From Candidatus Firestoneibacteriota bacterium (GTDB lineage Bacteria > Oederibacteriota > D2-FULL-39-29 > JBBTED01): a DNA stretch of 17,507 nt. Every line of letters begins with the position of its first letter. The stretch's first letter is position 1. Below, piece after piece: positions 1 to 14,322 of this stretch. Location: NCBI GenBank assembly GCA_038042445.1, contig JBBTED010000049.1:1-17507 (forward strand), in the 5' to 3' direction. A program made the translations under genes and the position numbers. Below the pieces are notes generated by a model. The model ran no database searches and had not been told where the DNA came from. It saw only the letters and a program-made list of their open reading frames with translations.

Positions 1-88
1 GTGGTGTTCCTTTTTGATAGCATAACAAAGCAGCAGCAACTGTAATTCTTTCTGGCTCCGGTGTATGTGTTAAAAGTTGGACTTCCAT
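1..88 (-). CDS. thyX: 5' end of FAD-dependent thymidylate synthase ThyX (runs off the window)
   Basis: Not in the ORF track. ATG at 88, 1 nt after the stop of the 90..515 ORF. Manual translation MEVQLLTHTPEPERITVAAALLCYQKGTP resembles the typical ThyX N-terminus (MKVxLLxHTPEPExxxAxAAxxCY). Confidence 0.75.
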   Translation of the reverse strand, partial: MEVQLLTHTPEPERITVAAALLCYQKGTP

Positions 89-89
89 A

Positions 90-515
90 TTATTTAGGAC
101 TCTCTACTTTTTGATTCATTGTTCTCAACATATTATAAACAAAAAGCAATACTGAAATACCTTCAATTATATAAGATATAATTAATAATAGCTGAAAAAA
201 ATCATTTTTCACTATTTTTGATAATGCCCACAAAACACCCATTCCAATTAATCCAATATTTGCAAGCCAAAATTGAACATCTGCCATTTTAGGAGAATAA
301 AGAGTAGTGCCATTAAATCTTGGCAATATATGATACCCAACACCATATATCATCATACTCATCCAACCAAGTAATCCAAAATGCACATGTGCAAGCAGCA
401 AAGCATCTATAACAAGTCCATTCCAATGCCATATTCCCATAATAACACCCAAAATTGCAGCAACTAAAAAATAAATAATTGATGCTTTTATAAATAATAC
501 TGTTGCTTTACTCAT
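90..515 (-). CDS. Small 4-TM membrane protein resembling one helical repeat of HCO subunit I (HxH motif)
   Basis: 141 aa with four hydrophobic segments; motifs AHVHFGLLGW and GVGYHILPRF; GGAGG RBS at about 526-530. Confidence 0.75.
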   Translation of the reverse strand: MSKATVLFIKASIIYFLVAAILGVIMGIWHWNGLVIDALLLAHVHFGLLGWMSMMIYGVGYHILPRFNGTTLYSPKMADVQFWLANIGLIGMGVLWALSKIVKNDFFQLLLIISYIIEGISVLLFVYNMLRTMNQKVESPK

Positions 516-590
516 AGTTTATGACCCTCCATTTTAGTAGAACTTGTAAAAACAGAAAATTTATTATTTGTTCATTCATATTATTAAAAT

Positions 591-2174
591 TTAATTCATA
601 GTCCTACGCAATGGAAATACTATATTTATAATAGTTTTTAAAGTTAAAGTTCTAATTAAGTTAATAAGAAGGCACAGAAATCCTATCACTATACTAATGC
701 CTCCTATCATAGCAATATTCATTTCTGTTTTAAACTCTATCCCATGATATATAGTACGTCTAAGCATTCCATTTAAACCAGCTGACCCCATAGCTATAAC
801 CATTATAAGAACTCCTGCAACCCAAAATATCAAATGAAGATTAACCAACATATGACTCTTCATTTCTCTATTTAACAAGAGCGGTATTAAAGCATAAACA
901 ATTGCAAACAATAATGGACTCAAACCCAAAAGTAACATTGTATGTCCATGTATACCAATAACCCATTGAGTATTATGCAATACAACATTCAATCCATAGT
1001 TAGCCTGTGTGATTCCTGCTACGGCCCCTAACATAAACCCAAACATAGAAACCAAAATAAATTTTAAAGCAGGTGTGAATTTTACTGGCCGTGCCAAATA
1101 TATTGTCATTAAACTTGCAAAAATTGTAAGCCCAACAGTTACAATTTCCCCAGAAGTTATAAACTGACCAGAAATAAGATGCATAGCCAAAGGTTGAGGT
1201 TGATCTGCAAGTAAATGATGACTCCATACACCTAAAGATATTAACAAATCTGCAAGAATGACTGTACGAACTACACCTTCACCAAATAGTTTTCTATTAA
1301 CTAACATAGGTATTAAAAGATACCATGTACCTGCTGCATACATTAGAACATTTCCATCAGCAATCATATCTAATCCCCACCAAAACCAGTTTTTATATAT
1401 CAAAGCATCAATAATATGCGGATTCAATGTTCCAAACCCAAGTAAAGATGGAATAGCAAAAATAAGAATTAGAATACCACAAGTAAGAATCACAAAAGCA
1501 TTAACCACAGTATCAATACTTCCTCTTGCTACGGCAACAACAAATACAGGTAATGTATCATAAAGTTTATTTTCTTCCTGTATTTCTTTTTTCTTTTTAA
1601 AAATACGGTCTAAACCAAAAGCAGATTTTAAATAGTCTCCAAAACTATAAAGTTTTGATTTTTCAGCTCCATTTACTGGCTTACGTTTAATCATAGTAGC
1701 AAATATATTGTAAGTAAAAAGTAAAATATTAACTAAAGTTATAGCTGCCCCAAGACAGAAAATAACTGCACCTAAATTAGATATCCTACTAAACCAAACA
1801 GGCAAAGGCCAGTATAAAGTATACAAAGCATTGAATTTGGTAAAAAAACCTGAACACCAAACAATAATTACACCAATAGATTGCATCCAGAAATTAAGTG
1901 GAATCAATTTCTTATTGTAAACTTGTGTCTTTAGTAAATATGGCATCAAAAAATAAAAAGCCCCCATAATTGCCATATAAGCATATCCATAAATTCCAAG
2001 TATCGGATGTACTGTCATTACTGAATAGAAATGTTCCGTTGAAAGACAATCAGGTTTGATATGTGAAATACGCATCATCATACCTTCAATTATAGTAAGA
2101 AATAGAAATCCTAATGCAGCCAATACATACCTTATTGTCCATTTTGTTTCAAAAGTTAACTCATTATTTTCCAT
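591..2174 (-). CDS. Heme-copper oxidase superfamily subunit I, divergent; gNOR-like putative nitric oxide reductase
   Basis: 527 aa, about 12 TM. H56 (helix II), HH 319/320 (VWSHH), HxH 409/411 (IHGH) and RR 472/473 are conserved. Helix VI reads FWWGLD(269)MIAD(273)G in place of GHPxVY or HLWVEG. GGAGGA RBS. Confidence 0.9.
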   Translation of the reverse strand: MENNELTFETKWTIRYVLAALGFLFLTIIEGMMMRISHIKPDCLSTEHFYSVMTVHPILGIYGYAYMAIMGAFYFLMPYLLKTQVYNKKLIPLNFWMQSIGVIIVWCSGFFTKFNALYTLYWPLPVWFSRISNLGAVIFCLGAAITLVNILLFTYNIFATMIKRKPVNGAEKSKLYSFGDYLKSAFGLDRIFKKKKEIQEENKLYDTLPVFVVAVARGSIDTVVNAFVILTCGILILIFAIPSLLGFGTLNPHIIDALIYKNWFWWGLDMIADGNVLMYAAGTWYLLIPMLVNRKLFGEGVVRTVILADLLISLGVWSHHLLADQPQPLAMHLISGQFITSGEIVTVGLTIFASLMTIYLARPVKFTPALKFILVSMFGFMLGAVAGITQANYGLNVVLHNTQWVIGIHGHTMLLLGLSPLLFAIVYALIPLLLNREMKSHMLVNLHLIFWVAGVLIMVIAMGSAGLNGMLRRTIYHGIEFKTEMNIAMIGGISIVIGFLCLLINLIRTLTLKTIINIVFPLRRTMN

Positions 2175-2202
2175 ATCAATCCTCCATTATAGATTTAGAA
2201 CC

Positions 2203-2766
2203 CTAAAGCACCTTAATTGCATCATATACAACCATATCTGAATGTTTCGGACCTGAATATTCTGTAGATCTCACATCATAATAACCAGACTGTGAAAAAT
2301 TCCATACAAATCTGTTTTTATAACCTGGTAAAACTTGTATCTGAAACACTAATGTTCCATCTTTACGAAATACTCCAAAACCATAAGTAACATCAGTAGA
2401 ATTTAGAACAAATTCAACAAACTGATTTTTTTCAAAAGTAATAGGTTCTTCAGGAAACTTAAAATTATAATCTGAAACTTCAATATTATAAGTTTTTACA
2501 ACTATTGGTTTAGACCATAGTCTCCATCTCTGCCATGGCACCATATTGGAAATAGTAATAATATGAGCAAGAATAATTATAGATATTAGTATTAAAAAGA
2601 ATCGTAACTCTCGCTTATCTATTCCTGACTTTTTTTCATCAGTTTCTATCTGAGACACATCGGATTTTCTAATTTTGCGAATAAACCATGTAAAAAAAAG
2701 ACAAACCGATATGAAATAAATTGTATAGAATATACGTATTGAATCTGTTACATACATATCAATCAC
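2203..2766 (-). CDS. HCO subunit II (two TM helices plus cupredoxin domain) lacking CuA ligands
   Basis: DVTY(128)GF replaces DVxHxF. S167-T-E-Y-S171-G-P-K-H-S-D-M replaces CxExCGxxHxxM. No CxxCH. GGAGGTG RBS. Confidence 0.88.
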   Translation of the reverse strand: MIDMYVTDSIRIFYTIYFISVCLFFTWFIRKIRKSDVSQIETDEKKSGIDKRELRFFLILISIIILAHIITISNMVPWQRWRLWSKPIVVKTYNIEVSDYNFKFPEEPITFEKNQFVEFVLNSTDVTYGFGVFRKDGTLVFQIQVLPGYKNRFVWNFSQSGYYDVRSTEYSGPKHSDMVVYDAIKVL

Positions 2767-2769
2767 CTC

Positions 2770-3651
2770 CTAAAAAATTAGTTTTCTAAATGATTCTATT
2801 CCCACTCTATTTACGAACATACCAAACCGTTCATCTTTTTGAGATTCCTGAATGTACAACTTTAGACATATTTCTAAAGATTGAACAACAGTATTTTCGT
2901 CAACTAAATCTAATAATTTAACTGCAAATTGTGGATGCCTTCCAAGTTTTCCTCCAATAAATACAGAATACCCACTTTTTTTAGTAACCAATGCCAAAAC
3001 AGGACAAACTTTTATACAAGCAAAACATCCAACACATTTAGAATAATTAACTACAGGTTGTGATTCGTCTTTTATGATTATCGCCTTTTCTTTGCATTCT
3101 TCAATACAAAGTTTACAATTTATACATTTATCATTTACTACTTCAGGAACCACCTGCGATATAACACCAAAATCTTTTATTTGTGGCTGAGAACAGGCAT
3201 TGGGGCATTCTGAAACAGCAATTCTAAATGTATGATGATAAAGAACAGGGCCATCTATTTTATCAATTAAAATATCTGTAGTTTTCATCTCTTCAAGTTT
3301 ATTCTGCAATTTAACAAGCAAACTACTGGAATCCATTAAAGACAAGGGGCATAAATGTTCATCATTACATCCTGTTACTTCATATAATTTTTCTCTGGAT
3401 TCCCACTTCCGTGGGAATGACATTTCTTTTACAGATTCACTATTCAAAGGTTTTTGCATTAGAGAAACTAATTTTTTTGTATCTATACCTACTTTTGAAA
3501 ACATAAATTTCTTCACTTCACTCACATCATTCTCTGTCACTTTTATTCTACCTCTACAAGTAACATATTCTTCTACTTTTTTCTTAGCCAAACCTCTTAC
3601 AAATATTGGTACTTTTTTAATTCTGGCTAAAGCATTAGTTTCCCATTCCAT
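2770..3651 (-). CDS. Sulfite/nitrite-reductase-like Fe-S protein (PCP_red-like N-terminus, NIR_SIR-type Cys motifs, 2[4Fe-4S] ferredoxin insert)
   Basis: N-terminal WxxxAxxRIKKVPIFVR. Cx5C (CNDEHLC) and Cx3C (CPNAC) motifs. Ferredoxin motifs CINCKLCIEEC and CVGCFACIKVCP. GGKLGRHP and ERFG motifs. Confidence 0.82.
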   Translation of the reverse strand: MEWETNALARIKKVPIFVRGLAKKKVEEYVTCRGRIKVTENDVSEVKKFMFSKVGIDTKKLVSLMQKPLNSESVKEMSFPRKWESREKLYEVTGCNDEHLCPLSLMDSSSLLVKLQNKLEEMKTTDILIDKIDGPVLYHHTFRIAVSECPNACSQPQIKDFGVISQVVPEVVNDKCINCKLCIEECKEKAIIIKDESQPVVNYSKCVGCFACIKVCPVLALVTKKSGYSVFIGGKLGRHPQFAVKLLDLVDENTVVQSLEICLKLYIQESQKDERFGMFVNRVGIESFRKLIF

Positions 3652-3654
3652 AGA

Positions 3655-3873
3655 TTACTCTTTTTTGGAAATAGCTGCATTTATTTCATTAACAAGAGTT
3701 TCTGGTTCAATATTGTGCATCATTGCGCCAAAACTTAATGACTCTACATTTATTCCGGCACAAGTAAAACATCCTCCTCCAAAATATTTTTCAATAACAC
3801 TTTTTGCCTGAGGATATTTTCTAAGCACTTCACCTATCATCGTATCTTTATCTATTTTTACAATATCAGACAT
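3655..3873 (-). CDS. DUF1858-type protein (Hcp-associated redox disulfide domain)
   Basis: 72 aa: IDKDTMIGEVLRKYP...GGCFTCAG...ESLSFGAMMHNI, with CxxC. GAGGTG RBS. Confidence 0.8.
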   Translation of the reverse strand: MSDIVKIDKDTMIGEVLRKYPQAKSVIEKYFGGGCFTCAGINVESLSFGAMMHNIEPETLVNEINAAISKKE

Positions 3874-3886
3874 AAGGCATCACCTC

Positions 3887-4360
3887 TCAAGATGCCCAGT
3901 CTTCTGAAAGAACATCACCTTTAATACCAATAACTATAGATTTAATTGGAATTTTACGTTTTGATGCAGCAAGACCTTCTTGTGTAAGAGCCACCAAGCC
4001 AGCACAACAAGGAACTTCCATAGTCATTACTGTAATTGTATTCACTTTTGCATCATCTATAAGCGATTTTATTTTTTCAACATAAATCTCCTGATTCTCA
4101 TCCAATTTTGGACAAGCAATAGCAATACCTTTTCCTTTTAAATAATCTTTATGGAAATCTCCAAGAGCATGCGCTACACAATCTGCTGATATAAGAACAT
4201 CAGCCTTTTGAAAATATGGAGCCTGTGGAGAAACTAAATGCAACTGAATAGGCCACTGCCTAAGTTGCGACGTTCTCTTTCCTGCTTCATCTTTAACTTC
4301 ACTTTCCTTTTCCCTGAAGTCTTGCATATTTGACCCAGGACAACCGCAAGATGTACCCAT
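3887..4360 (-). CDS. Hcp-associated Fe-S protein, C-terminal domain only (no N-terminal ferredoxin domain)
   Basis: Motifs GCPGS, SQLRQWPIQLHLV, ADC, IACPKLD and MEVPCC are typical of the Fe-S protein often encoded next to hcp in anaerobes. Confidence 0.78.
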   Translation of the reverse strand: MGTSCGCPGSNMQDFREKESEVKDEAGKRTSQLRQWPIQLHLVSPQAPYFQKADVLISADCVAHALGDFHKDYLKGKGIAIACPKLDENQEIYVEKIKSLIDDAKVNTITVMTMEVPCCAGLVALTQEGLAASKRKIPIKSIVIGIKGDVLSEDWAS

Positions 4361-4361
4361 T

Positions 4362-5207
4362 TTACCTTACCCCCTTTTTTGTAGTCACTCGCCTAAGCAA
4401 ACGGCTACCTTTGACAATACTTTTTGTATTGCCATTTTCTAAATATTCGACAAATTTTTTGCATTTTTCCGACACTTCTTTCCCTATTTTTTTCTCTGCT
4501 TCATTAAATTTAGAAAATACTTCTCCAACCTGTGTTACTGAAAGCCCTCTATCAATCCATGGATATAATATTTCATCTTCTTTTTTTATATGTTGAGTCA
4601 AAAGTTCTTTATATTTAGTAAGATTTTCAATGATTGCATTTTTATCTTTCTTTGTAAGTGCTTCTACTATTGCTTTAACATAACCTCTGCCTGTTTTATG
4701 ATCTTCAAGCATCGTATTAATAATATCAAGATTGCCTACTGCATATTTAAATAATATATCCTCTTCTTTGGCATGATGAAATTTATCTGCATAAGAACGT
4801 ATAAAATCTACACTATTTATAATTAATTGTTCCCCAGATTTAGTTTTGATATCCAAATTTTTTAGCATATATGGTATAAGTACTAATAACTTTTTTATTA
4901 AAATATGCTCATCCACTAATCTTTTTATTGGTGGTGAATATTTTATCTCTTTGTTCTCTATCTTTTCAGAAACTGCTTTAATTTTAGGTTGTCTAATTTT
5001 TCTGTCTGGATAAATACTTTTTTCTATTAAATACATTAACTCTGTTTTTTGCTCAATTGGAAGATTATGTATATGGACAACATCCTTTAAAAGACAAGAA
5101 CCAACACTACAAGGAACACATCCAATGTTAAATTGTTCCAATATTGTTCCAACTTTAGGAAAATTTGTAATAACTTCTTTTATTGGTCCGTTTAAATATT
5201 TTTCCAT
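4362..5207 (-). CDS. Hemerythrin (HHE) di-iron protein with N-terminal CxxC domain (RIC/YtfE-like architecture)
   Basis: Hemerythrin ligand motifs DEH, HHAKEEDILF, EDH and HIKKEDEILYP; N-terminal GCVPCSVGSC. ATG 5207 preceded by AAGGTG is preferred over the track's GTG 5216. Confidence 0.85.
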   Translation of the reverse strand: MEKYLNGPIKEVITNFPKVGTILEQFNIGCVPCSVGSCLLKDVVHIHNLPIEQKTELMYLIEKSIYPDRKIRQPKIKAVSEKIENKEIKYSPPIKRLVDEHILIKKLLVLIPYMLKNLDIKTKSGEQLIINSVDFIRSYADKFHHAKEEDILFKYAVGNLDIINTMLEDHKTGRGYVKAIVEALTKKDKNAIIENLTKYKELLTQHIKKEDEILYPWIDRGLSVTQVGEVFSKFNEAEKKIGKEVSEKCKKFVEYLENGNTKSIVKGSRLLRRVTTKKGVR

Positions 5208-5224
5208 AATGTTCACACCTTCTT

Positions 5225-5244
5225 TATAGTATAAATATACTATA
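5225..5244. promoter_or_regulatory. Perfect inverted repeat overlapping the -10 box; candidate repressor operator
   Basis: TATAGTATA-AA-TATACTATA. Confidence 0.5.
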
Positions 5245-5260
5245 TATGGAAATATTTGTC

Positions 5261-5276
5261 TGTGATTTAAGTCACA
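5261..5276. promoter_or_regulatory. CRP/FNR-family (HcpR-type) binding site TGTGA-N6-TCACA
   Basis: TGTGA-tttaag-TCACA is a perfect match. Its centre (5268.5) lies about 41.5 nt upstream of the start predicted from minus-strand TATATT at 5239-5234. Confidence 0.8.
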
Positions 5277-5385
5277 CTTCTAAAATTCTTCTAATTTTCT
5301 TTTGGTATCGACATTACAATAGGCAATTTTACAAGGATGTAGATGTGTACCGCAAATTGTAGGATAGCATCTAATTTATTACTAT

Positions 5386-5598
5386 TTATGCAAAGACTAA
5401 ACGATGCCCTTTTGAATCAGGAATTTGCCGTCCTAATTCTTTAGCAGTTTCTAACCATTCCTGAATTATTACTTCTGCATTAGATAAAGCTTCTTGATAT
5501 GTTGTACCATCTGCCATACAACCCATAAGCTCTGGAACTTCAGCAATAAATGCATTATCTTCTTCACTCCAATAGATAATTATTTCGTATTTATTCAT
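5386..5598 (-). CDS. hicB: Short HicB-family antitoxin
   Basis: MNKYEIIIYWSEEDNAFIAEVPELMGCMADGTTYQEAL...GRQIP. ATG 5598 has a GGAGG RBS and is preferred over TTG 5610. Confidence 0.88.
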   Translation of the reverse strand: MNKYEIIIYWSEEDNAFIAEVPELMGCMADGTTYQEALSNAEVIIQEWLETAKELGRQIPDSKGHRLVFA

Positions 5599-5599
5599 A

Positions 5600-5844
5600 T
5601 TATCCTCCAAGTTTATACTTCAAAATTACATTACGTACCTGTTTGACTTGGTATGGTTTAGCTTTTGAATTTTTAGACTGTAAGTTCAAAATTTCCTCAA
5701 TATCATCTTTGCTAAAAATACAGTGACTTCTTTTTATTCGTTCATCAAAACCTAAATTTTCAATAACTGACACATTTCTGCAAATGAAATATTAGCATCA
5801 GAATAACCACTTAGAACTTTAATTAATATTTTTCGCCATGACAT
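5600..5844 (-). pseudogene. hicA: HicA-family toxin with 1-nt frameshift
   Basis: From ATG 5844: MSWRKILIKVLSGYSDANISFAEMCQLLKI*, with TAG at 5754-5752. Adding one A at 5757-5760 restores ...LKNLGFDERIKRSHCIFSKDDIEEILNLQSKNSKAKPYQVKQVRNVILKYKLGG* (81 aa), ending 1 nt before the hicB ATG. Confidence 0.85.
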
Positions 5845-5961: not shown

Positions 5962-8358
5962 ATGCACAAAAGAATAGCTGGGATTTGTGTGTTTTTTGTG
6001 TCGTTGTTTTTTTATTTGCATACACTTTGTCCTTCTGTTTATGTAGGGGATAGTGGGGAATTAATAGCTGCTACATATAGTTTGGGGATTGCTCATCCGC
6101 CTGGATATCCACTTTTTTGTTTTTTAGCAAAAATCATAACACTAATTTTTTCTTTTGGAGCTTTTGCATTTCAGGTAAATTTTGCAACTTCTGTATTTGC
6201 TGCTTTAACTGTAATGGTATTATATTTTTTTATTTTTGAAATTGCAAAAAGATATGGCAGTGAAAATACCAAAGAATATTTACTTATAATTATAAGTGTT
6301 ACTGGGAGTTTGTGTTTCGCTTTTTCAAAAACTTTTTGGTCGCAGTGTACTATGGCTGAAGTTTACACTTTAACTTCTTTATCTGTAATAGCCACACTTT
6401 TTCTTTTAACATCGTATGGGCGTATAGTAGAAAATGGAGATATAAATAGAGCAAAGAAAATATTGTATATATTTTCTTTGGTTTATGGGATTGCTTTTGC
6501 AAATCACAATACTCTAATGTACCTTTTTCCATTTTATACAGGATACATAATATATACAGGAAAAGGGAAATTGAAATTTGATGTTTTCATTATTGCTATT
6601 GCATTGATGTTTTTGGGGCTGACTTTTTATATGTATATGCCACTTCGGTCTTTGGCAAATCCTGCGATGGATTGGGGTAATCCTGAAACACTTGATAATT
6701 TTATAAGGCAGATTTTACGAACACAATATGGTAGACTTGCAAAAGTTCCCAGATCTATTCCCAGACTTTTTGAACAGTCATTTGTATTTTTGAAATCACT
6801 TTTGTATCAATTTACGCCATATCTATTGAGTTTGTCTATTTTAGGACTTATATTAAATTTTAAACGGAAAATTGTTATGTTTACTGTTTTGATTTTTGTT
6901 GCATTCAGTTTTGGAATAATTTTTTTGATGAATTTTAATATTACACCTAAGGAATTAGATTCTGTAGAAGTTTTTTATATTCCTGCATATCTTATAACAA
7001 CAATATGGATGAGTTTAGGTGTATTAGCAATTTGCCAAATTATTTTGCTCAAAAATACTGTAATTTTAGGTTTATTATGTTTAGTTTTGCCAGTAGCTCC
7101 TCTTTTGTCAAATTATTTTGCTGAGGATAACAGTCGCTATTTCATAGCTTATGACTATGGTTTTAATTTGTTAAAAACTCCTACAAGCAATTCAGTATTA
7201 TTTATATCACAGGATAATGAGGTTTTTACATTGGCATATTTAGTAATGGTGGAAAAATTAAGACAGGATTTGACAATATATGATGAATTAGGTGCTGTTT
7301 TCCCTAATATTTATGGAGATGATTTTTTTAAAATATCAGTACCTGAGCATTCCAAGAGGTTGACTTCAGTTGAATTAGATGTTATTGCAAAAGAAACAAG
7401 ACCTGTTTATTTTAATCTTGGAAGTAATTTGAAGCGTTTAGAAACAGTGAAGGCAAAACAATTAGGCTTACTTTTTAGAGCAATAAAGGGCAGTGTGGCA
7501 AATATCAATGAAAAATATTTCTGGGATATTTATAAGATGCGGGGAATAGATGATGATACAGTTCATAAGGATTATCTTACTAAAGATGCAATTGCACAAT
7601 ATTATTTTATTCAGGGAGAAAATTATGCATCAGTTGGAAAATTAAAAGAGGCAGGTTTGTATTATAATTTAGCTTCTAAATCTGGTGAGGGGGTTGACTG
7701 GTTACAAAGTAATATTGCCAATGCTTATATAAAGAGAGGGTTCAAAGAGGAAGCAATGCTTGAATATAAAAAAGCTGTTGAGCTTTTTCCAAAAAAAGCA
7801 TCTGCACATTATAATTTAGGTGTAGGATATGCAAAAGTAGGGATGGATACTGAAGCAATTGCTGAATACAAACGTACAATTGAACTTGATTCTTCTTATG
7901 TTGATGCATATAACAATCTTGCAAATGCATATAGAAGGAGAGGGTTACTGAATGATGCAGTTGTAACTCTTGAAAAAGCAGTTAAAATAGCTTCTGATAA
8001 AGCAGAGCTGCATTTTAATTTAGGAACAACTTATGAGGATATTGGACAACAGACACGTGCTTTAGAAGAATATAAATTAACAATACAAATAGATGCTAAA
8101 CATACTTCTGCGCGAAACAATTTGGCTAATATTTATATTGCAACAAGGATGCTTGATTTAGCAATAAATGAATATTTAAAAATATTTGAAATAGCTCCTG
8201 ATTTTGCAGATGCGCATCATAATTTGGGTGTAGCATACGCGATGAAAGGGGACATTCAAAAAGCAATAGAGCAATGGAAAATAACATTAAAAATAATGCC
8301 TAATCACATAGGTGCTGCCGAAAACCTTAACAGGGCTAGTAAAATGCTGGTTAAATAA
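5962..8358 (+). CDS. DUF2723/TMEM260-like GT-C membrane glycosyltransferase with C-terminal TPR repeats
   Basis: GDSGELIAA...LGIAHPPGYPLF, AEVYTL, NH, and LPLRS-like plus DWGNP motifs. Multiple TM segments. Repeated AHYNLG/AYNNLA TPR units in roughly the last 250 aa. Confidence 0.85.
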   Translation: MHKRIAGICVFFVSLFFYLHTLCPSVYVGDSGELIAATYSLGIAHPPGYPLFCFLAKIITLIFSFGAFAFQVNFATSVFAALTVMVLYFFIFEIAKRYGSENTKEYLLIIISVTGSLCFAFSKTFWSQCTMAEVYTLTSLSVIATLFLLTSYGRIVENGDINRAKKILYIFSLVYGIAFANHNTLMYLFPFYTGYIIYTGKGKLKFDVFIIAIALMFLGLTFYMYMPLRSLANPAMDWGNPETLDNFIRQILRTQYGRLAKVPRSIPRLFEQSFVFLKSLLYQFTPYLLSLSILGLILNFKRKIVMFTVLIFVAFSFGIIFLMNFNITPKELDSVEVFYIPAYLITTIWMSLGVLAICQIILLKNTVILGLLCLVLPVAPLLSNYFAEDNSRYFIAYDYGFNLLKTPTSNSVLFISQDNEVFTLAYLVMVEKLRQDLTIYDELGAVFPNIYGDDFFKISVPEHSKRLTSVELDVIAKETRPVYFNLGSNLKRLETVKAKQLGLLFRAIKGSVANINEKYFWDIYKMRGIDDDTVHKDYLTKDAIAQYYFIQGENYASVGKLKEAGLYYNLASKSGEGVDWLQSNIANAYIKRGFKEEAMLEYKKAVELFPKKASAHYNLGVGYAKVGMDTEAIAEYKRTIELDSSYVDAYNNLANAYRRRGLLNDAVVTLEKAVKIASDKAELHFNLGTTYEDIGQQTRALEEYKLTIQIDAKHTSARNNLANIYIATRMLDLAINEYLKIFEIAPDFADAHHNLGVAYAMKGDIQKAIEQWKITLKIMPNHIGAAENLNRASKMLVK

Positions 8359-11745: not shown

Positions 11746-14322
11746 ATGATTTATACAGGTAAGAATGTTAGGGAAATTGCTTTTCCGCTTGGTGGAATAG
11801 GGACAGGTTCAATATCTTTAGGTGGTTGGGGGCAGCTTAGAGAGTGGGAAATAATGAATAAGCCAAACAAATTAAACGAGAGGAATAAGTATTTTTATGA
11901 TGTGCCAAAACATACATTTTTTACAGTTAAGATAAAGCAGGAAAATAAGAATGATATAATCAAAGTTTTGCAAGGGAATTGTGAAGGGGATTTTATTGGA
12001 TATGGTGGTTCAGGTCCAATGCATTCAGGCGAAGGTTTGCCACATTTTCGTAAAACAAAATTTGTTGGGAATTATCCTTTTGCAAAGGTTATTTTGCAAG
12101 ATGTTGATGTTCCAGTAGATGTTACATTAGAAGCTTTCAATCCTTTTATTCCACTTAATGCAAAGGATTCAGGGATACCTGCTGCAATTTTACTTTATCA
12201 TTTTAAAAATACGAGCAATAAAACAATTGAAGGAACAATATATGGAAATTTAAGAAATATAATTGGAGATCCTGAAAAAGAAGGTAAAATCAATAAGATA
12301 AAAAAGTCATCTAATCTTACAGGATTATATTTAACAACAGACAAATTTAAAAATGATTCTCCTAAATACGGTTCTATTGCATTATCTACAATATCTAAAA
12401 ATGTAAAAATTTTACCAAAATGGAAGGATGATAGATTATCAAAATTCTGGCAAATGTTAGAATTAGATAAATTGCCAGAGGACAAAGGTGTTGCAGAAAT
12501 TGGGACAGTGGCTATAGATTTTAAAATAAAAGCTAAAGAAACAATAGCTATTCCTTTCTTTATAACATGGTGTTTTCCAAATTTTGAAAAGTATTGGGAT
12601 GCTTCATCTAATTGTTGTGGTAGTTCATCTGTCAATGAGATATGGAAAAATTATTATGCAACTATATGGGAAAATGCATGGGATGTAGCGAAATATACAG
12701 CAGATAATTTTGACAGGCTTTATAATGAAACAAAGCTATTTGCTGATACTTTGTTTTCTTCAACTTTACCTGATTATGTGTTGGATGCTATAAGTTCACA
12801 AGTATCAATATTAAAAACAACGACTTGTATAAGATTAGAAGATGGAACATTTTATGGATTTGAAGGTTGTCATAACACAGGGGGTTGTTGTGAGGGTTCA
12901 TGTGCACATGTATGGAATTATGTTCAGGCAGTTGCGTATCTTTTTCCAGAACTTCAACGTTCAATGAGAGAAGCTGATTATAAATATAGTATGGCTAAAG
13001 ATGGATTTATACAATTTAGATTACCATTGCCACTTGGTAAAAAGCCAGATTTTGAAATGCAACCGGCAGCAGATGGACAAATGGGTGGTATTATGCAAGT
13101 GTATAGAGAATGGCTTATAACTGGAGATGATAAGTGGCTAAAAGGAATATGGCAATCAGCTAAAAAAGCATTAGAGTTTGCATGGAAGTATTGGGATAAA
13201 GATAAAGATGGTGTAATGGAAGGAATGCAGCATAATACTTATGATTGTGAACTTTATGGTCCAAATACAATGATGGGTAGTTTATATTTAGGAGCACTTC
13301 GTGCAGGGGAGGAAATTGCAAGATATTTAGGAGAAATCGATAATGCAAATGAATATAGAAAGTTATTTGAGAAGGGTTCAAAATGGACGGATAAAAATTT
13401 ATTTAATGGAGAATACTATGAACAAAAAGTTAATCCAGAGGCGCATAAAATCTGGCCAAAGAAATACTGGCCAGAAAATATGAAATTGGCATGGAGGAAA
13501 GATGGCAAAGATGATAAATTTCCATCCTGGCCAAGATGGCAGTATGGAAAAGGTTGTTTGTCTGACCAGATTATTGGTCAATGGTATGCTGAGATGTTAG
13601 GATTGAGATATTTTTATAGTAAAAAAAATACTCAAAAAACCTTAAAGTCCATATATAAATATAATTGGAAAAAAGATTTATCGGGTCATGCTAATTTTCT
13701 TCGGACATACGCATTAAATAATGAATCAGGACTGTTAATTTGTACTTGGCCTAAAGGAGAAAGACCCGGATATTCTTTAGTGGATTATCCAGAAGAAATA
13801 TGGACAGGAATAGAATATCAGGTAGCAAGCCATTTGATATATGAAGGATTTATTAAAGAAGGGTTAAAGATATGTAAAGGAGTAAGAAGCAGATATAATG
13901 GAGAAAAGCGTAATCCTTGGGATGAAATAGAATGCGGGCATCATTATGCAAGGGCTATGTCAAGTTATGCACTTTTATTAGCTCTTTCAGGATTTTCATA
14001 TTCTGCACCGCAAAAGAAAATCGGATTTTCACCGCGAATAAACAAAAGTAATTTTGGAACTTTTTTTTCAGTTGGTTCAGGATGGGGATATTACAAACAA
14101 AAAATTAAAAACAACAAAGGTATTTTAGAATTAGAAATAAAATATGGCAAATTAAAATTACAGGAAATTGCGATAAATATAAAAGCTAAAAAATGTTTTG
14201 CAAAACTTGGCGATAAACAAATTGCAACTGAAATTAAATATGGAAAAGAAAAGACGTATATAATTTTTGACAATGTATTAACAATTGATAAAGATAAATC
14301 CTTAAAGTTGTATTTCAGCTAA
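11746..14322 (+). CDS. Glycoside hydrolase family 116 (GBA2-like beta-glycosidase), no evident signal peptide
   Basis: IAFPLGGIGTG, AFNPFIP, FYGFEG, DKDGVMEG.QHNTYD, EIWTGIEY and ECGHHYARAM motifs; AGGAGG RBS. Confidence 0.9.
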   Translation: MIYTGKNVREIAFPLGGIGTGSISLGGWGQLREWEIMNKPNKLNERNKYFYDVPKHTFFTVKIKQENKNDIIKVLQGNCEGDFIGYGGSGPMHSGEGLPHFRKTKFVGNYPFAKVILQDVDVPVDVTLEAFNPFIPLNAKDSGIPAAILLYHFKNTSNKTIEGTIYGNLRNIIGDPEKEGKINKIKKSSNLTGLYLTTDKFKNDSPKYGSIALSTISKNVKILPKWKDDRLSKFWQMLELDKLPEDKGVAEIGTVAIDFKIKAKETIAIPFFITWCFPNFEKYWDASSNCCGSSSVNEIWKNYYATIWENAWDVAKYTADNFDRLYNETKLFADTLFSSTLPDYVLDAISSQVSILKTTTCIRLEDGTFYGFEGCHNTGGCCEGSCAHVWNYVQAVAYLFPELQRSMREADYKYSMAKDGFIQFRLPLPLGKKPDFEMQPAADGQMGGIMQVYREWLITGDDKWLKGIWQSAKKALEFAWKYWDKDKDGVMEGMQHNTYDCELYGPNTMMGSLYLGALRAGEEIARYLGEIDNANEYRKLFEKGSKWTDKNLFNGEYYEQKVNPEAHKIWPKKYWPENMKLAWRKDGKDDKFPSWPRWQYGKGCLSDQIIGQWYAEMLGLRYFYSKKNTQKTLKSIYKYNWKKDLSGHANFLRTYALNNESGLLICTWPKGERPGYSLVDYPEEIWTGIEYQVASHLIYEGFIKEGLKICKGVRSRYNGEKRNPWDEIECGHHYARAMSSYALLLALSGFSYSAPQKKIGFSPRINKSNFGTFFSVGSGWGYYKQKIKNNKGILELEIKYGKLKLQEIAINIKAKKCFAKLGDKQIATEIKYGKEKTYIIFDNVLTIDKDKSLKLYFS

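What the first reader, a model, noticed from the sequence alone, without database searches (positions are those of the whole stretch)
90..5276. Hcp-style NO-stress operon built around a gNOR-like heme-copper enzyme instead of Hcp
Seen: seven same-strand genes with gaps of 1-75 nt behind a perfect TGTGA-N6-TCACA box. Known: the hemerythrin/RIC-like protein, the QWPxQL/CPKLD/MEVPCC Fe-S protein and the DUF1858 CxxC protein usually accompany hybrid cluster protein in HcpR-controlled nitrosative-stress regulons of anaerobes. Seen: hcp is absent here, and a divergent two-subunit HCO, a sulfite/nitrite-reductase-like protein and a 4-TM HxH protein are present instead. Inference: an integrated module for NO/nitrite detoxification (membrane reduction, cytoplasmic reduction, Fe-S repair) in an anaerobe. 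I do not recognise this combination as characterised.
Basis: partly seen in the sequence, partly recalled or inferred. Interest (0 to 1): 0.85.

Follow-up and report, generated by a model that had tools for sequence, protein, structure and literature searches.

The report
gNOR inserted into duplicated NO-stress operon
An uncultured groundwater anaerobe carries a probable nitric-oxide reductase of the untested "gNOR" type spliced into one of two copies of a small stress operon whose parts resemble known nitric-oxide defence proteins, which makes this enzyme family's proposed job easier to test but is not a new kind of system.

Summary
In detail: seven minus-strand genes (5216..90), gaps of 1-75 nt, and a perfect TGTGA-N6-TCACA box at 5261-5276. 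An eighth gene (thyX) starts 2 nt after the last one and is cut by the contig end.

The heme-copper pair is a true gNOR. Asp replaces the first CuB His, the cross-link Tyr is absent, and subunit II has no CuA cysteines.

The new result is that the cluster is composite. The same genome holds a second copy on contig C2 (76-87% aa identity) of hemerythrin/RIC-like, AF_0155 Fe-S, DUF1858, Fsr-C-like siroheme protein, 4-TM protein and thyX. That copy has no gNOR and sits directly behind a Crp/Fnr regulator and the same box. The gNOR genes are therefore a 2.25-kb insertion.

The 4-TM protein is one third of the HCO/NnrS fold. Of its 150 best relatives, 40 are fused to DUF1858 and 22 match NnrS.

Across 160 other gNOR loci only the subII-subI pair is conserved. 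Hemerythrin neighbours occur in 25 of 140 loci and Crp in 18 of 140.

No hcp was found; the Prismane hit is CooS. The only other promoter-like box lies before a ferritin/SOR/rubrerythrin operon, so the signal could be oxidative rather than nitrosative. There are no expression data.

Verdict: probable NO/nitrite defence operon, a new variant of a known kind.

The parts
5261..5276 (-). CRP/HcpR-type palindrome TGTGA-N6-TCACA. It overlaps a -35-like hexamer and is centred about 41.5 nt upstream of a start inferred from a TATATT -10-like hexamer.
   Evidence: The core GTGACTTAAATCAC is identical in the paralogous promoter on C2. Genome-wide the core has 11 hits, of which 3 are promoter-like.
5280..5304 (-). 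Relic of the 3' end of the Crp/Fnr regulator gene. It marks the left boundary of the segmental duplication.
   Evidence: The alignment with C2 extends to window 5304, into the last codons of the C2 crp gene.
4362..5216 (-). g1: RIC-like protein. It has an N-terminal DUF1858/ScdA_N-like CxxC segment and a hemerythrin HHE di-iron domain (284 aa; likely start ATG 5207).
   Evidence: Pfam Hemerythrin E=1.3e-14. TIGR03980 matches residues 11-40 at 19.2 bits, and TIGR03652 RIC scores 23.9 against a cut-off of 204.7. The N-terminus resembles g3.
3887..4360 (-). g2: Cys-rich AF_0155-family (PF27217) putative Fe-S protein, 157 aa.
   Evidence: No hit in the local Pfam or NCBIfam copies. Atlas and precomputed Pfam give PF27217. 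There are 5871 homologues and the best are about 75% identical.
3655..3873 (-). g3: stand-alone DUF1858 / 'hybrid cluster protein-associated redox disulfide' domain, 72 aa.
   Evidence: PF08984 E=1.2e-13. TIGR03980 scores 50 bits, over its cut-off of 44.95.
2770..3651 (-). g4: small sulfite/nitrite-reductase-like siroheme protein (PCP_red + NIR_SIR with an inserted 2x[4Fe-4S] ferredoxin), 293 aa. It carries an in-frame 30-nt palindromic insertion at 3392-3421.
   Evidence: The best solved relative is the C-terminal half of F420-dependent sulfite reductase 7NP8, E=1.1e-26. CX5C and CX3C motifs are read directly in the sequence. The architecture is found in 1918 proteins. The insertion is shown.
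2203..2766 (-). g5: gNOR subunit II. It has two TM helices and a cupredoxin domain without CuA ligands (likely start ATG 2757).
   Evidence: TIGR02866 CoxB E=2.9e-10. In the alignment with the ba3 CuA domain, His is replaced by Tyr and both Cys by Ser.
591..2174 (-). g6: gNOR subunit I, 527 aa.
   Evidence: COX1 E=3.2e-60. D269 and D273 align with the CuB His and the cross-link Tyr of ba3. D269, D273, H319, H320, H409, H411 and H56 are invariant in 120 of 120 homologues.
523..2773 (-). The 2.25-kb stretch (subII + subI + spacers) that has no counterpart in the C2 paralogue: the inserted gNOR cassette.
   Evidence: blastn shows window 1-522 and 2774-5304 aligning with C2 51224-51769 and 51800-54320. 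The subII/g4 junction is bridged without differences by contigs of two runs from two studies.
90..515 (-). g7: 4-TM protein, a free-standing third of the HCO/NnrS fold with conserved H43, H45 and H62.
   Evidence: COX1 positions 305-398, E=8.8e-12. The model has pLDDT 97.1, and all 50 listed PDB rows are HCO/NOR entries. Conservation is, fusions.
1..87 (-). 5' end of a second thyX copy, which probably continues at the end of contig C15.
   Evidence: tblastn matches thyX residues 8-36 at window 88-2 and residues 63-243 at C15 25755-25213. Homology to C2 ends at the thyX stop.

Best explanation
The cluster is a composite stress operon.

Shown:
- An ancestral six-gene operon carries the box, a RIC-like hemerythrin, an AF_0155 Fe-S protein, DUF1858, an Fsr-C-like siroheme reductase, an NnrS-like 4-TM protein and thyX. 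It exists behind a Crp/Fnr regulator on contig C2.
- This operon was duplicated without the regulator gene.
- The copy in the window holds a two-gene gNOR cassette between the siroheme protein and the 4-TM protein.

Inferred:
- The gNOR cassette was acquired horizontally.
- The C2 regulator (CRP/DNR-like, no FNR cysteine cluster) binds the GTGA-N6-TCAC box at about -41.5 and activates both copies in trans under nitrosative, and possibly oxidative, stress.
- gNOR reduces NO to N2O in the membrane with quinol electrons.
- The siroheme protein, fed by the Fe-S protein, reduces nitrite, hydroxylamine or sulfite in the cytoplasm.
- The 4-TM heme-binding protein works with the DUF1858 protein and the RIC-like protein, as in their fused relatives, in handling NO-damaged iron centres.
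For: gNOR membership.
- D269 and D273 align with the CuB His and cross-link Tyr of ba3 and are invariant in 120 of 120 homologues.
- Subunit II lacks the CuA His and both Cys.
- Murali et al. 2024 (PMC11214002, passages and supplements) define gNOR in just this way and propose NO reduction.

Composite origin.
- The C2 paralogues are 77/85/87/76/84% identical in protein.
- At DNA level they are 83.6% and 85% identical on either side of a 2.25-kb gap-free insertion.
- A relic of the crp 3' end lies at the duplication edge.
- thyX is co-duplicated, and homology stops at its stop codon.
- The C2 flanking housekeeping genes are single-copy.
- gNOR and the siroheme protein are each found in 1 of 99 genomes of the phylum.
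- The GC3 of the insertion equals that of its flanks.

Link to NO.
- Of the 150 best representatives of the 4-TM family, 40 carry DUF1858, 22 match NnrS and 17 carry ScdA_N.
- nnrS and dnrN (RIC) are core members of NO-responsive regulons (PMC1274295, passages). NnrS contributes to NO resistance in V. cholerae (PMC3345576, passages).
- The closest gNOR locus, L090 (77% identity), has Rrf2-subII-subI followed by Fer4+AF_0155, DUF1858+DUF2249 and DUF438+hemerythrin.
- Among 140 gNOR loci with a called subunit I, hemerythrin lies within 5 kb in 25 and Crp/Fnr in 18.

Regulator.
- Its recognition helix (TVREVISR) keeps the Arg-Glu pair that PMC1274295 links to TGTGA-type sites, and an Arg five residues after the first. 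My equating of these with CRP R180, E181 and R185 is by position and partly recalled.
- Rodionov et al. tie R180/E181 to TGTGA-type sites and give wTGTGAnnnnnnTCACAw as the Desulfovibrio HcpR consensus.

Context.
- An NrfA-like nitrite reductase, HemB and a SirC-like gene are present.
- No other HCO and no cytochrome bd were found.
Against: - No gNOR has been assayed, so NO reduction is a proposal in the literature, not a fact.
- The seven-gene set is not conserved. The Cys-rich protein is near gNOR in only 1 of 160 other loci, a real 4-TM homologue in 1-3, and a real g4-like protein in 0.
- The box is not statistically above chance by count. It is no better conserved than the rest of the 84%-identical promoter.
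- The only independent promoter-like site of the box core precedes ferritin-like/SOR/FMN-reductase/rubrerythrin genes, a classical oxidative-stress set.
- The regulator is not shown to be an HcpR or DNR orthologue. CRP scores as well as DNR.
- RIC and AsrC equivalog cut-offs are far from met.
- There are no transcript data.
- The neighbourhood counts include near-duplicate loci from two collections and are dominated by Chloroflexota. They are not independent events.
Confidence: 0.6

Rival explanations
1. This is an oxygen or oxidative-stress regulon. The Crp-type regulator senses O2, ROS or redox state. The gNOR-like enzyme scavenges O2 at the membrane of a strict anaerobe, and hemerythrin binds O2.
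For: The third promoter-like box precedes ferritin-like, desulfoferrodoxin, FMN-reductase and rubrerythrin genes, just after a flavodiiron gene. No cytochrome bd and no other HCO were found, so this would be the only membrane O2 reductase. Hemerythrins bind O2, and B-family oxidases reduce both gases (PMC11214002, passage).
Against: The cross-linked Tyr, which Murali et al. hold to be required for O2 reduction, is missing, as is one CuB His. The fusion partners of the 4-TM family (NnrS, ScdA_N, DUF1858) point to NO. Flavodiiron proteins also reduce NO (best NCBIfam match is the anaerobic NO reductase flavorubredoxin, below its cut-off).
Confidence: 0.15
2. This is a sulfite or sulfur-stress module. 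The Fsr-C-like siroheme protein detoxifies sulfite, and gNOR is an adaptation to sulfidic water rather than part of one pathway.
For: The best solved relative of g4 is a sulfite reductase, and sources name its relatives AsrC or DsrAB. gNORs are reported mostly from sulfidic sites (PMC11214002, passage).
Against: No sulfite transporter or other sulfur genes lie in the operon. The other members have NO-linked relatives. Siroheme reductases of this kind commonly also reduce nitrite (own knowledge).
Confidence: 0.1
3. gNOR is respiratory. It would be an energy-conserving terminal NO reductase working with NrfA-based nitrite respiration, and its place in the stress operon only borrows a promoter.
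For: An NrfA-like gene is present. In other loci gNOR neighbours include UbiA, histidine kinases and Crp regulators, typical of respiratory operons.
Against: No nirS was found, and nirK was not searched for. No UbiA or heme-maturation gene lies beside it here. It is embedded between stress-type genes with 3-75-nt gaps.
Confidence: 0.1
4. This is an assembly or binning artefact. C49 would be a chimeric contig, or would come from another organism than C2, so there is no in-genome duplication.
For: The genome is a 181-contig bin with 2.2% contamination. C49 ends inside thyX. One contig of run X6 leaves the window at 516 and runs into the C2-type spacer.
Against: Contigs of runs from two studies bridge the subII/g4 junction with 0 differences. 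Only the six-gene segment is duplicated, while neighbouring single-copy genes (rpsP, trmD, rplS, pfk, fba) are not. GC and GC3 are uniform.
Confidence: 0.05

Closest known systems
gNOR family of the heme-copper oxidoreductase superfamily (Hemp & Gennis 2008 and Sievert et al. 2008 as cited in PMC8756737; Murali et al. 2024, PMC11214002)
   Same: Asp replaces one active-site His, there is no cross-link Tyr, subunit II is a cupredoxin without CuA, and the closest solved relative is B-family (ba3).
   Different: Here the pair is embedded in a stress operon of an AT-rich groundwater bacterium whose phylum otherwise lacks it (1 of 99 genomes). The usual neighbours (UbiA, Crp, histidine kinase) are not adjacent.
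HcpR regulon of Desulfovibrio (hcp-frdX behind wTGTGAnnnnnnTCACAw; Rodionov et al. 2005, PMC1274295)
   Same: The palindrome is the same, the regulator is CRP/FNR-type with the Arg-Glu pair that PMC1274295 links to TGTGA-type sites, and the targets are Fe-S and DUF1858 proteins that NCBIfam labels 'hybrid cluster protein-associated'.
   Different: No hcp was found in the assembly. Orthology of the regulator to HcpR was not tested. The predicted regulon also holds an SOR/rubrerythrin operon.
NnrS (PF05940), the heme- and copper-containing 12-TM protein of NO-responsive regulons
   Same: The 4-TM protein g7 is homologous to the repeat unit. Of its 150 best relatives, 22 match NnrS and are built of three such units.
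   Different: g7 is only one third (141 aa) and does not itself reach PF05940. Whether it oligomerises is unknown.
RIC / YtfE / ScdA / DnrN di-iron proteins (review PMC9268430)
   Same: Both have two domains: a small N-terminal Cys-bearing domain and a hemerythrin-like four-helix di-iron domain.
   Different: The score is 23.9 bits against the RIC equivalog cut-off of 204.7. The N-terminal motif is CxxC, not the CC of ScdA_N.
C-terminal sulfite-reductase half of F420-dependent sulfite reductase Fsr (PDB 7NP8) and AsrC
   Same: Both have a NIR_SIR siroheme/[4Fe-4S] domain with an inserted 2x[4Fe-4S] ferredoxin. Residues 140-288 align at E=1.1e-26.
   Different: There is no F420H2-oxidising half, a PCP_red domain sits at the N-terminus, and the AsrC equivalog cut-off is not met (82 against 324 bits).
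Earlier scan finding e1-3619663 (Bacteroidales Rrf2-headed gNOR cluster with DUF438/hemerythrin/PAS and DUF1858)
   Same: gNOR sits beside hemerythrin and DUF1858 genes. My locus L090 shows the same pattern.
   Different: No paralogous gNOR-free copy, 4-TM protein or siroheme protein is reported there (an AI note that I did not check).

Membership tests
gNOR (HCO superfamily) | Aspartate in place of the first CuB-ligating histidine of helix VI | tested here: met
   D269 aligns with the His of the ba3 'GHP' motif and is invariant in 120 of 120 homologues. The ba3 residue number H233 is recalled.
gNOR (HCO superfamily) | No cross-linked active-site tyrosine | tested here: met
   D273 aligns with the ba3 Tyr. 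Supplement file 4 of PMC11214002 lists '-' for gNOR at Y244.
gNOR (HCO superfamily) | The other heme and metal ligands are retained (helix II His, the HH pair, HxH of helix X) | tested here: met
   H56, H319, H320, H409 and H411 are invariant in 120 of 120 homologues. HH and HxH align with ba3.
gNOR (HCO superfamily) | Subunit II with a cupredoxin fold but without CuA ligands | tested here: met
   In the alignment with the ba3 CuA domain, His is replaced by Tyr and both Cys by Ser, while the second His and the Met are kept.
gNOR (HCO superfamily) | Branches with the B-family oxygen reductases | tested here: inconclusive
   All 18 solved sequences matched are ba3 subunit I. No phylogeny was made.
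gNOR (HCO superfamily) | Quinol-dependent NO reductase activity | not testable with these tools
   The activity is proposed in PMC11214002 but has not been assayed for any member.
HcpR regulon | CRP/FNR-family regulator with Arg-Glu in the recognition helix and a TGTGA-N6-TCACA site before the targets | tested here: met
   The recognition helix reads TVREVISR. The box is seen, and the consensus and residue rule come from PMC1274295.
HcpR regulon | hcp as the core target | tested here: not met
   The only PF03063 match over the cut-off is CooS (TIGR01702, 635 bits against 478). The assembly is 90% complete.
HcpR regulon | Regulator orthologous to HcpR | not tested
   Solved relatives CRP and DNR score alike. 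No HcpR reference sequence was at hand.
RIC / YtfE | Reaches the RIC equivalog model (ScdA_N + di-iron domain) | tested here: not met
   TIGR03652 scores 23.9 bits against a cut-off of 204.7, and PRK10992 scores 22.9 against 254.
NnrS (PF05940) | 12-TM protein matching PF05940 | tested here: not met
   g7 has 4 TM helices and matches only COX1. Of its 150 best relatives, 22 match NnrS.
Siroheme sulfite/nitrite reductases (NIR_SIR) | CX5C...CX3C ligands of the siroheme-coupled [4Fe-4S] cluster | tested here: met
   The motifs 'GCNDEHLC' and 'CPNAC' are read in the translation. 'CPNAC' aligns with 'CPNGC' of Fsr. PF01077 E=2.3e-19.
AsrC (TIGR02912) | Reaches the equivalog cut-off | tested here: not met
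   82.2 bits against 324.1.

The most novel reading that the evidence does not exclude
The 4-TM proteins of the g7 type are free-standing thirds of the heme-copper-oxidase/NnrS fold. They assemble, perhaps as trimers, into a heme-binding membrane platform for DUF1858 and RIC-like proteins. Together with the Fe-S and siroheme proteins they form a self-contained, mobile NO-defence 'chassis' that works without Hcp and into which this lineage plugged a gNOR. If so, the two natural copies, with and without gNOR, are a ready-made comparison for assigning functions to gNOR, NnrS-like proteins and DUF1858. The stand-alone 4-TM unit may also resemble the building block from which 12-TM HCO subunits arose by triplication.
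Probability: 0.2. Interest if true: 0.75.

Novelty: new variant of a known kind. Interest (0 to 1): 0.5.

Why it matters
gNOR is one of several heme-copper families proposed, but never shown, to make N2O. This matters for budgets of a greenhouse gas and for the history of aerobic respiration.

Here a gNOR sits inside an operon whose other members resemble known NO-defence proteins. The same genome keeps a gNOR-free copy of that operon behind its regulator. That gives a clear and cheap experimental design: express the two operon versions, or the regulator with the box, and challenge them with NO, nitrite or O2.

The work also ties three poorly understood protein families into one unit, through gene order and natural fusions. 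These are the NnrS-like 4-TM proteins, DUF1858 and AF_0155.

It is not a new kind of system. The enzyme family, the regulator type and the accessory families are all known.

Tried and rejected
- hcp elsewhere in the genome. The PF03063 hit on C149 first looked like hcp. NCBIfam shows it is CooS, followed by CooF- and NuoE-like genes. No box lies upstream of it.
- Box significance by count. It is not above chance. The promoter-like scan as a whole is below the shuffle mean (26 against 33.9), so it was used only for geometry.
- Weak 'NIR_SIR' hits near other gNORs (18-29 bits; 10 of 80 and 7 of 80 loci). The cluster that joins g2 to neighbours of other gNOR loci is held together by the ferredoxin part of the L090 fusion. 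I read the weak NIR_SIR hits as ferredoxin-domain matches too, though I did not check those ORFs.
- Most '4-TM' hits are subunit I matching itself through its internal repeat.
- Contaminant-contig idea. It was rejected because only the six-gene segment is duplicated.
- Expression. No RNA holder is listed for the stretch. Contigs of DNA runs cannot show transcripts. The subI/g7 junction (515-591) is not bridged by any of the contig pieces listed (235 pieces not shown), so it rests on contig C49 itself.
- Complex prediction for a g7 homotrimer.
- g2 structure. The model has pLDDT 57.5, and the Foldseek rows are generic alpha/beta folds with E >= 0.013, so they are uninformative. There is no solved relative by sequence.
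- Wider distribution of the six-gene module. g7-like matches in 4 other genomes are parts of longer proteins.
- Earlier scan notes by place (near) and by g4 sequence gave nothing.
- Literature. 'hemerythrin' and 'DUF1858' do not occur in the main text or in the 7 readable supplements of PMC11214002 (one supplement was unreadable). A search for 'DUF2871' gave 5 papers, none on function by title. A search for heme-copper, four-helix, triplication and NnrS gave nothing on free-standing 4-TM units.
- The taxon was not verified by me. Earlier notes call the genome Firestonebacteria.

Full report
**Observation.** The window is a whole contig (C49, 17,507 nt) of a 2.8-Mb, 181-contig genome bin, 90% complete and 32% G+C. 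On the minus strand lie seven ORFs at 4362-5216, 3887-4360, 3655-3873, 2770-3651, 2203-2766, 591-2174 and 90-515. The gaps between them are 1, 13, 3, 3, 28 and 75 nt. A perfect TGTGA-N6-TCACA palindrome lies at 5261-5276, 45 nt before the first ORF. An eighth ORF begins 2 nt after the seventh and runs off the contig. Its 29 visible residues are 97% identical to the start of a thyX gene elsewhere in the genome. No terminator-like site was found on the minus strand between the genes. So the description is correct.

**The box by count.** By count alone the box is not above chance. The window has 1 match against 0.70 expected, and 101 of 200 shuffles have one. The genome has five perfect copies against roughly three expected from composition (my arithmetic).

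**The heme-copper pair.**
- Subunit I (527 aa) matches COX1 end to end (E=3.2e-60). All 18 solved sequences it matches are Thermus ba3 subunit I.
- In that alignment D269 stands where ba3 has its first CuB histidine, and D273 where it has the cross-linked tyrosine. The HH pair and the HxH of helix X are kept.
- In an alignment of the 120 best database homologues (52-100% identical), the motif around D269/D273 and all heme and metal histidines are invariant.
- Subunit II (187 aa) is CoxB-like. Against the ba3 CuA domain, the first His is Tyr and both Cys are Ser.
- These are the features by which Murali et al. 2024 define gNOR: Asp for His, a cupredoxin subunit without CuA, possibly quinol-oxidising, a relative of the B family, proposed but not shown to reduce NO (PMC11214002, passages). 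Their supplement lists no cross-link Tyr for gNOR.

**The cluster is composite.** A search of the genome for COX1 found, besides subunit I, two small matches: the seventh gene and a paralogue on contig C2.
- Around the C2 paralogue lies a second copy of the cluster. The order is: a Crp/Fnr regulator (218 aa), then paralogues of genes 1, 2, 3, 4 and 7 (77, 85, 87, 76 and 84% identical), then a complete thyX.
- At DNA level, window 2774-5304 aligns with C2 51800-54320 (83.6%) and window 1-522 with C2 51224-51769 (85.0%). The 2.25 kb between them, which carries subunits II and I, has no counterpart; C2 has about 30 nt there.
- Upstream, the homology ends inside the last codons of the C2 regulator gene, so the window keeps a 25-nt relic of it.
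- Downstream, the rest of the second thyX copy lies at the very end of contig C15 (90% identical). Homology to C2 stops at the thyX stop codon.
- The housekeeping genes that flank the C2 copy (rpe, rpsP, trmD, rplS) and those on C49 (pfk, fba) have no second copy above 50% identity. This is therefore a segmental duplication of a six-gene operon, not two organisms in one bin.
- Contigs of two public runs from two studies bridge the subunit II/gene 4 junction without a difference.
- gNOR was found in 1 of 99 genomes of the phylum, this one only. Its closest relatives (77%, loci L088-L090) lie in unrelated genomic backgrounds, where other L090 proteins are <=45% identical to anything in this genome. 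Their contexts hold no gene 4 or gene 7.
- Insertion of a mobile subII-subI pair into one operon copy is therefore the simplest history. GC3 of the insert equals that of its flanks, so either the donor was equally AT-rich (L089 and L090 have 28-30% G+C) or the event is old.
- Deletion from the C2 copy cannot be excluded without an outgroup.

**Is the gene set conserved?** I fetched 80 gNOR loci from species-representative genomes and 80 from metagenomes, with up to 8 kb on each side.
- Searching them with the seven proteins found subunit II in 73 and 76 loci and hemerythrin in 14 and 12.
- DUF1858 was found in 2 and 0, the Cys-rich protein in 0 and 1 (L090), and a real 4-TM homologue in 1-3 loci.
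- The only 'NIR_SIR' scores were in the ferredoxin range.
- An unbiased clustering of all neighbours (1,883 ORFs; 140 loci with a called subunit I, window included) gave these recurrent partners: subunit II (103), hemerythrin (25), histidine kinases (20), Crp/Fnr regulators (18), UbiA (18) and an unknown 459-aa protein (15).
- These counts include near-identical loci from the two collections and are mostly Chloroflexota and Bathyarchaeia, so they are not independent events.
- The seven-gene combination is thus unique to this genome in the sample. A looser association of gNOR with hemerythrin, DUF1858 and redox regulators does recur. L090 reads Rrf2, subII, subI, UbiA, two other genes, Fer4+AF_0155, DUF1858+DUF2249, DUF438+hemerythrin.

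**The accessory proteins.**
- Gene 1 is a hemerythrin-domain protein. Its N-terminus weakly matches the DUF1858/TIGR03980 domain and resembles gene 3. That is the two-domain plan of RIC/YtfE (PMC9268430, passages), but it is far below the RIC equivalog cut-off.
- Gene 2 belongs to PF27217 (AF_0155). It is very common (5,871 hits), and sources name it only '4Fe-4S ferredoxin'. Its model was too poor to use.
- Gene 3 is a stand-alone DUF1858, over the TIGR03980 cut-off.
- Gene 4 has PCP_red and NIR_SIR domains with an inserted di-cluster ferredoxin, and both cysteine motifs of the siroheme-coupled cluster. Its best solved relative is the sulfite-reductase half of Fsr (E=1.1e-26). The architecture is widespread in anaerobes (1,918 hits).
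- Gene 7 is the most informative. It matches COX1 positions 305-398, including the HxH of helix X, and folds with pLDDT 97 into four helices. The only structural matches among the 50 rows shown are catalytic subunits of heme-copper oxidases and NO reductases, with cbb3 best at TMq 0.82.
- A full-library search with gene 7 found 802 cluster representatives. Of the best 150, 63 are stand-alone (120-170 aa), 26 are 290-365 aa, 20 are 380-470 aa and 15 are longer.
- Of the same 150, 143 match COX1, 40 carry DUF1858 in the same chain, 22 match NnrS and 17 carry ScdA_N. The 400-aa and longer forms contain the unit three times.
- H43, H45, Y61, H62 and P65 are conserved in the stand-alone forms.
- Gene 7 is thus one third of the NnrS/HCO fold. 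Natural fusions tie it to exactly the domains that genes 1 and 3 supply here.
- nnrS and dnrN (RIC) are, with hcp, hmp and nor, the core of NO-responsive regulons (PMC1274295, passages). NnrS contributes to NO resistance in Vibrio cholerae (PMC3345576, passages).

**Regulation.**
- The C2 regulator is CRP/DNR-like (CRP E=7.6e-24; DNR E=1.8e-23 over its full length). It has no N-terminal cysteine cluster.
- Its recognition helix keeps the Arg-Glu pair that Rodionov et al. link to TGTGA-type sites, and an Arg five residues after the first. Those authors link R180/E181 to TGTGA-type sites and give wTGTGAnnnnnnTCACAw as the Desulfovibrio HcpR consensus. The equation with CRP R180, E181 and R185 is by position and partly recalled.
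- Its stop codon lies 5 nt before the C2 box, whose 14-nt core is identical to the window's.
- A -10-like TATATT places the box centre near -41.5, the class II position (geometry only).
- Genome-wide the core GTGA-N6-TCAC occurs 11 times. Seven copies are inside genes and three are promoter-like: the two operon copies and one before a ferritin-like, desulfoferrodoxin, FMN-reductase and rubrerythrin operon, just after a flavodiiron gene.
- That is thin statistically, because the two operon copies are not independent. It also means that the regulon mixes nitrosative-type and oxidative-type genes.
- Only one other full Crp-type regulator exists in the genome.

**Context in the genome.**
- The one strong Prismane match is CooS, followed by CooF- and NuoE-like genes (TIGR01702, 635 bits). 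No hcp was found.
- An NrfA-like nitrite reductase (192 bits), HemB, a SirC-like gene and one UbiA-family gene are present.
- Cytochrome bd and cytochrome d1 were not found, nor any other HCO. The assembly is 90% complete.
- The stretch occurs in groundwater metagenomes of at least three studies. No RNA run holds it.

**Mechanism and odds.**
- Shown: gNOR membership, the paralogous operon, the insertion, and the fusion links.
- Inferred: under NO or nitrite stress (for example from NrfA-type nitrite turnover) the Crp-type regulator activates both copies. gNOR removes NO at the membrane. The siroheme protein, with the Fe-S protein, removes nitrite or hydroxylamine. The 4-TM, DUF1858 and RIC-like trio deals with nitrosylated iron centres.
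- I put this at about 0.6. The rivals are an O2/ROS regulon (0.15), a sulfite module (0.1), a respiratory role for gNOR (0.1) and an artefact (0.05).

**Novelty.** The enzyme family, the regulator type and each accessory family are known.
- New here: the composite architecture, the natural pair of operons with and without gNOR in one genome, the absence of hcp, and the recognition that the '4-TM HxH protein' is a free-standing NnrS/HCO third linked to DUF1858 by fusions.
- I found no mention of hemerythrin or DUF1858 with gNOR in the text or readable supplements of PMC11214002. I also found nothing on free-standing 4-TM units in two literature searches. The library does not hold most subscription journals.
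- I rate this a new variant of a known kind, with interest 0.5.

Noticed in passing
window 3392-3421 (inside gene 4): A short palindromic REP-like element (core TTCCCAC-N4-GTGGGAA) lies in frame inside the siroheme-protein gene and makes it 10 aa longer than its C2 paralogue. The core occurs 5 times in the genome. Contig depth in four metagenome runs jumps to 10.8-409x in the two bins that cover it, against about 2-15x in the neighbouring bins, so the element is abundant in those communities.
   Followed up: partly
window 1-87; G000:C15:25213-25755; G000:C2:50601-51332: thyX is co-duplicated with the stress operon and follows the 4-TM gene at 2-13 nt in both copies. C49 and C15 probably abut inside the second thyX. 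Why a thymidylate synthase belongs to this unit is unexplained.
   Followed up: partly
window 5386-5773: A HicB-like antitoxin gene (PF15919) and a small upstream ORF lie between the operon promoter and the TMEM260-like gene, at the duplication boundary.
   Followed up: no
G000:C81:35000-46000 (L194): A second redox cluster: Rrf2 regulator, DUF362/Fer4, HD, an FmdE-like protein, a 408-aa DUF2249+DUF438+hemerythrin protein, Ogg, and a flavin reductase-rubredoxin.
   Followed up: partly
G000:C149 (L001 434-3330): A CooS-CooF-NuoE-like CO dehydrogenase cluster. An inverted repeat with 11-nt arms lies in its upstream region, just after a tRNA gene.
   Followed up: no
G000:C2:51763-51810: A G+C-rich hairpin sits in the spacer between g4' and g7', exactly where gNOR is inserted in the window copy. 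One contig of run X6 leaves the window sequence at 516 and runs into this spacer.
   Followed up: partly
window 5962-8358 and 11746-14322: The TMEM260-like/TPR protein has more than 10 paralogues (31-40% identity) across the genome. The GH116 glycosidase has an 89%-identical copy on C22.
   Followed up: no
G000:C67:67641-68996: An NrfA-like cytochrome c552 nitrite reductase (192 bits) in a genome without cytochrome bd, cytochrome d1 or any HCO other than gNOR.
   Followed up: no
L009, L013, L033, L094, L099 and others, just downstream of gNOR subunit I: An uncharacterised protein of about 459 aa with no Pfam match follows gNOR subunit I within 16-220 nt in 10 of the 15 loci where it occurs near gNOR.
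   Followed up: no
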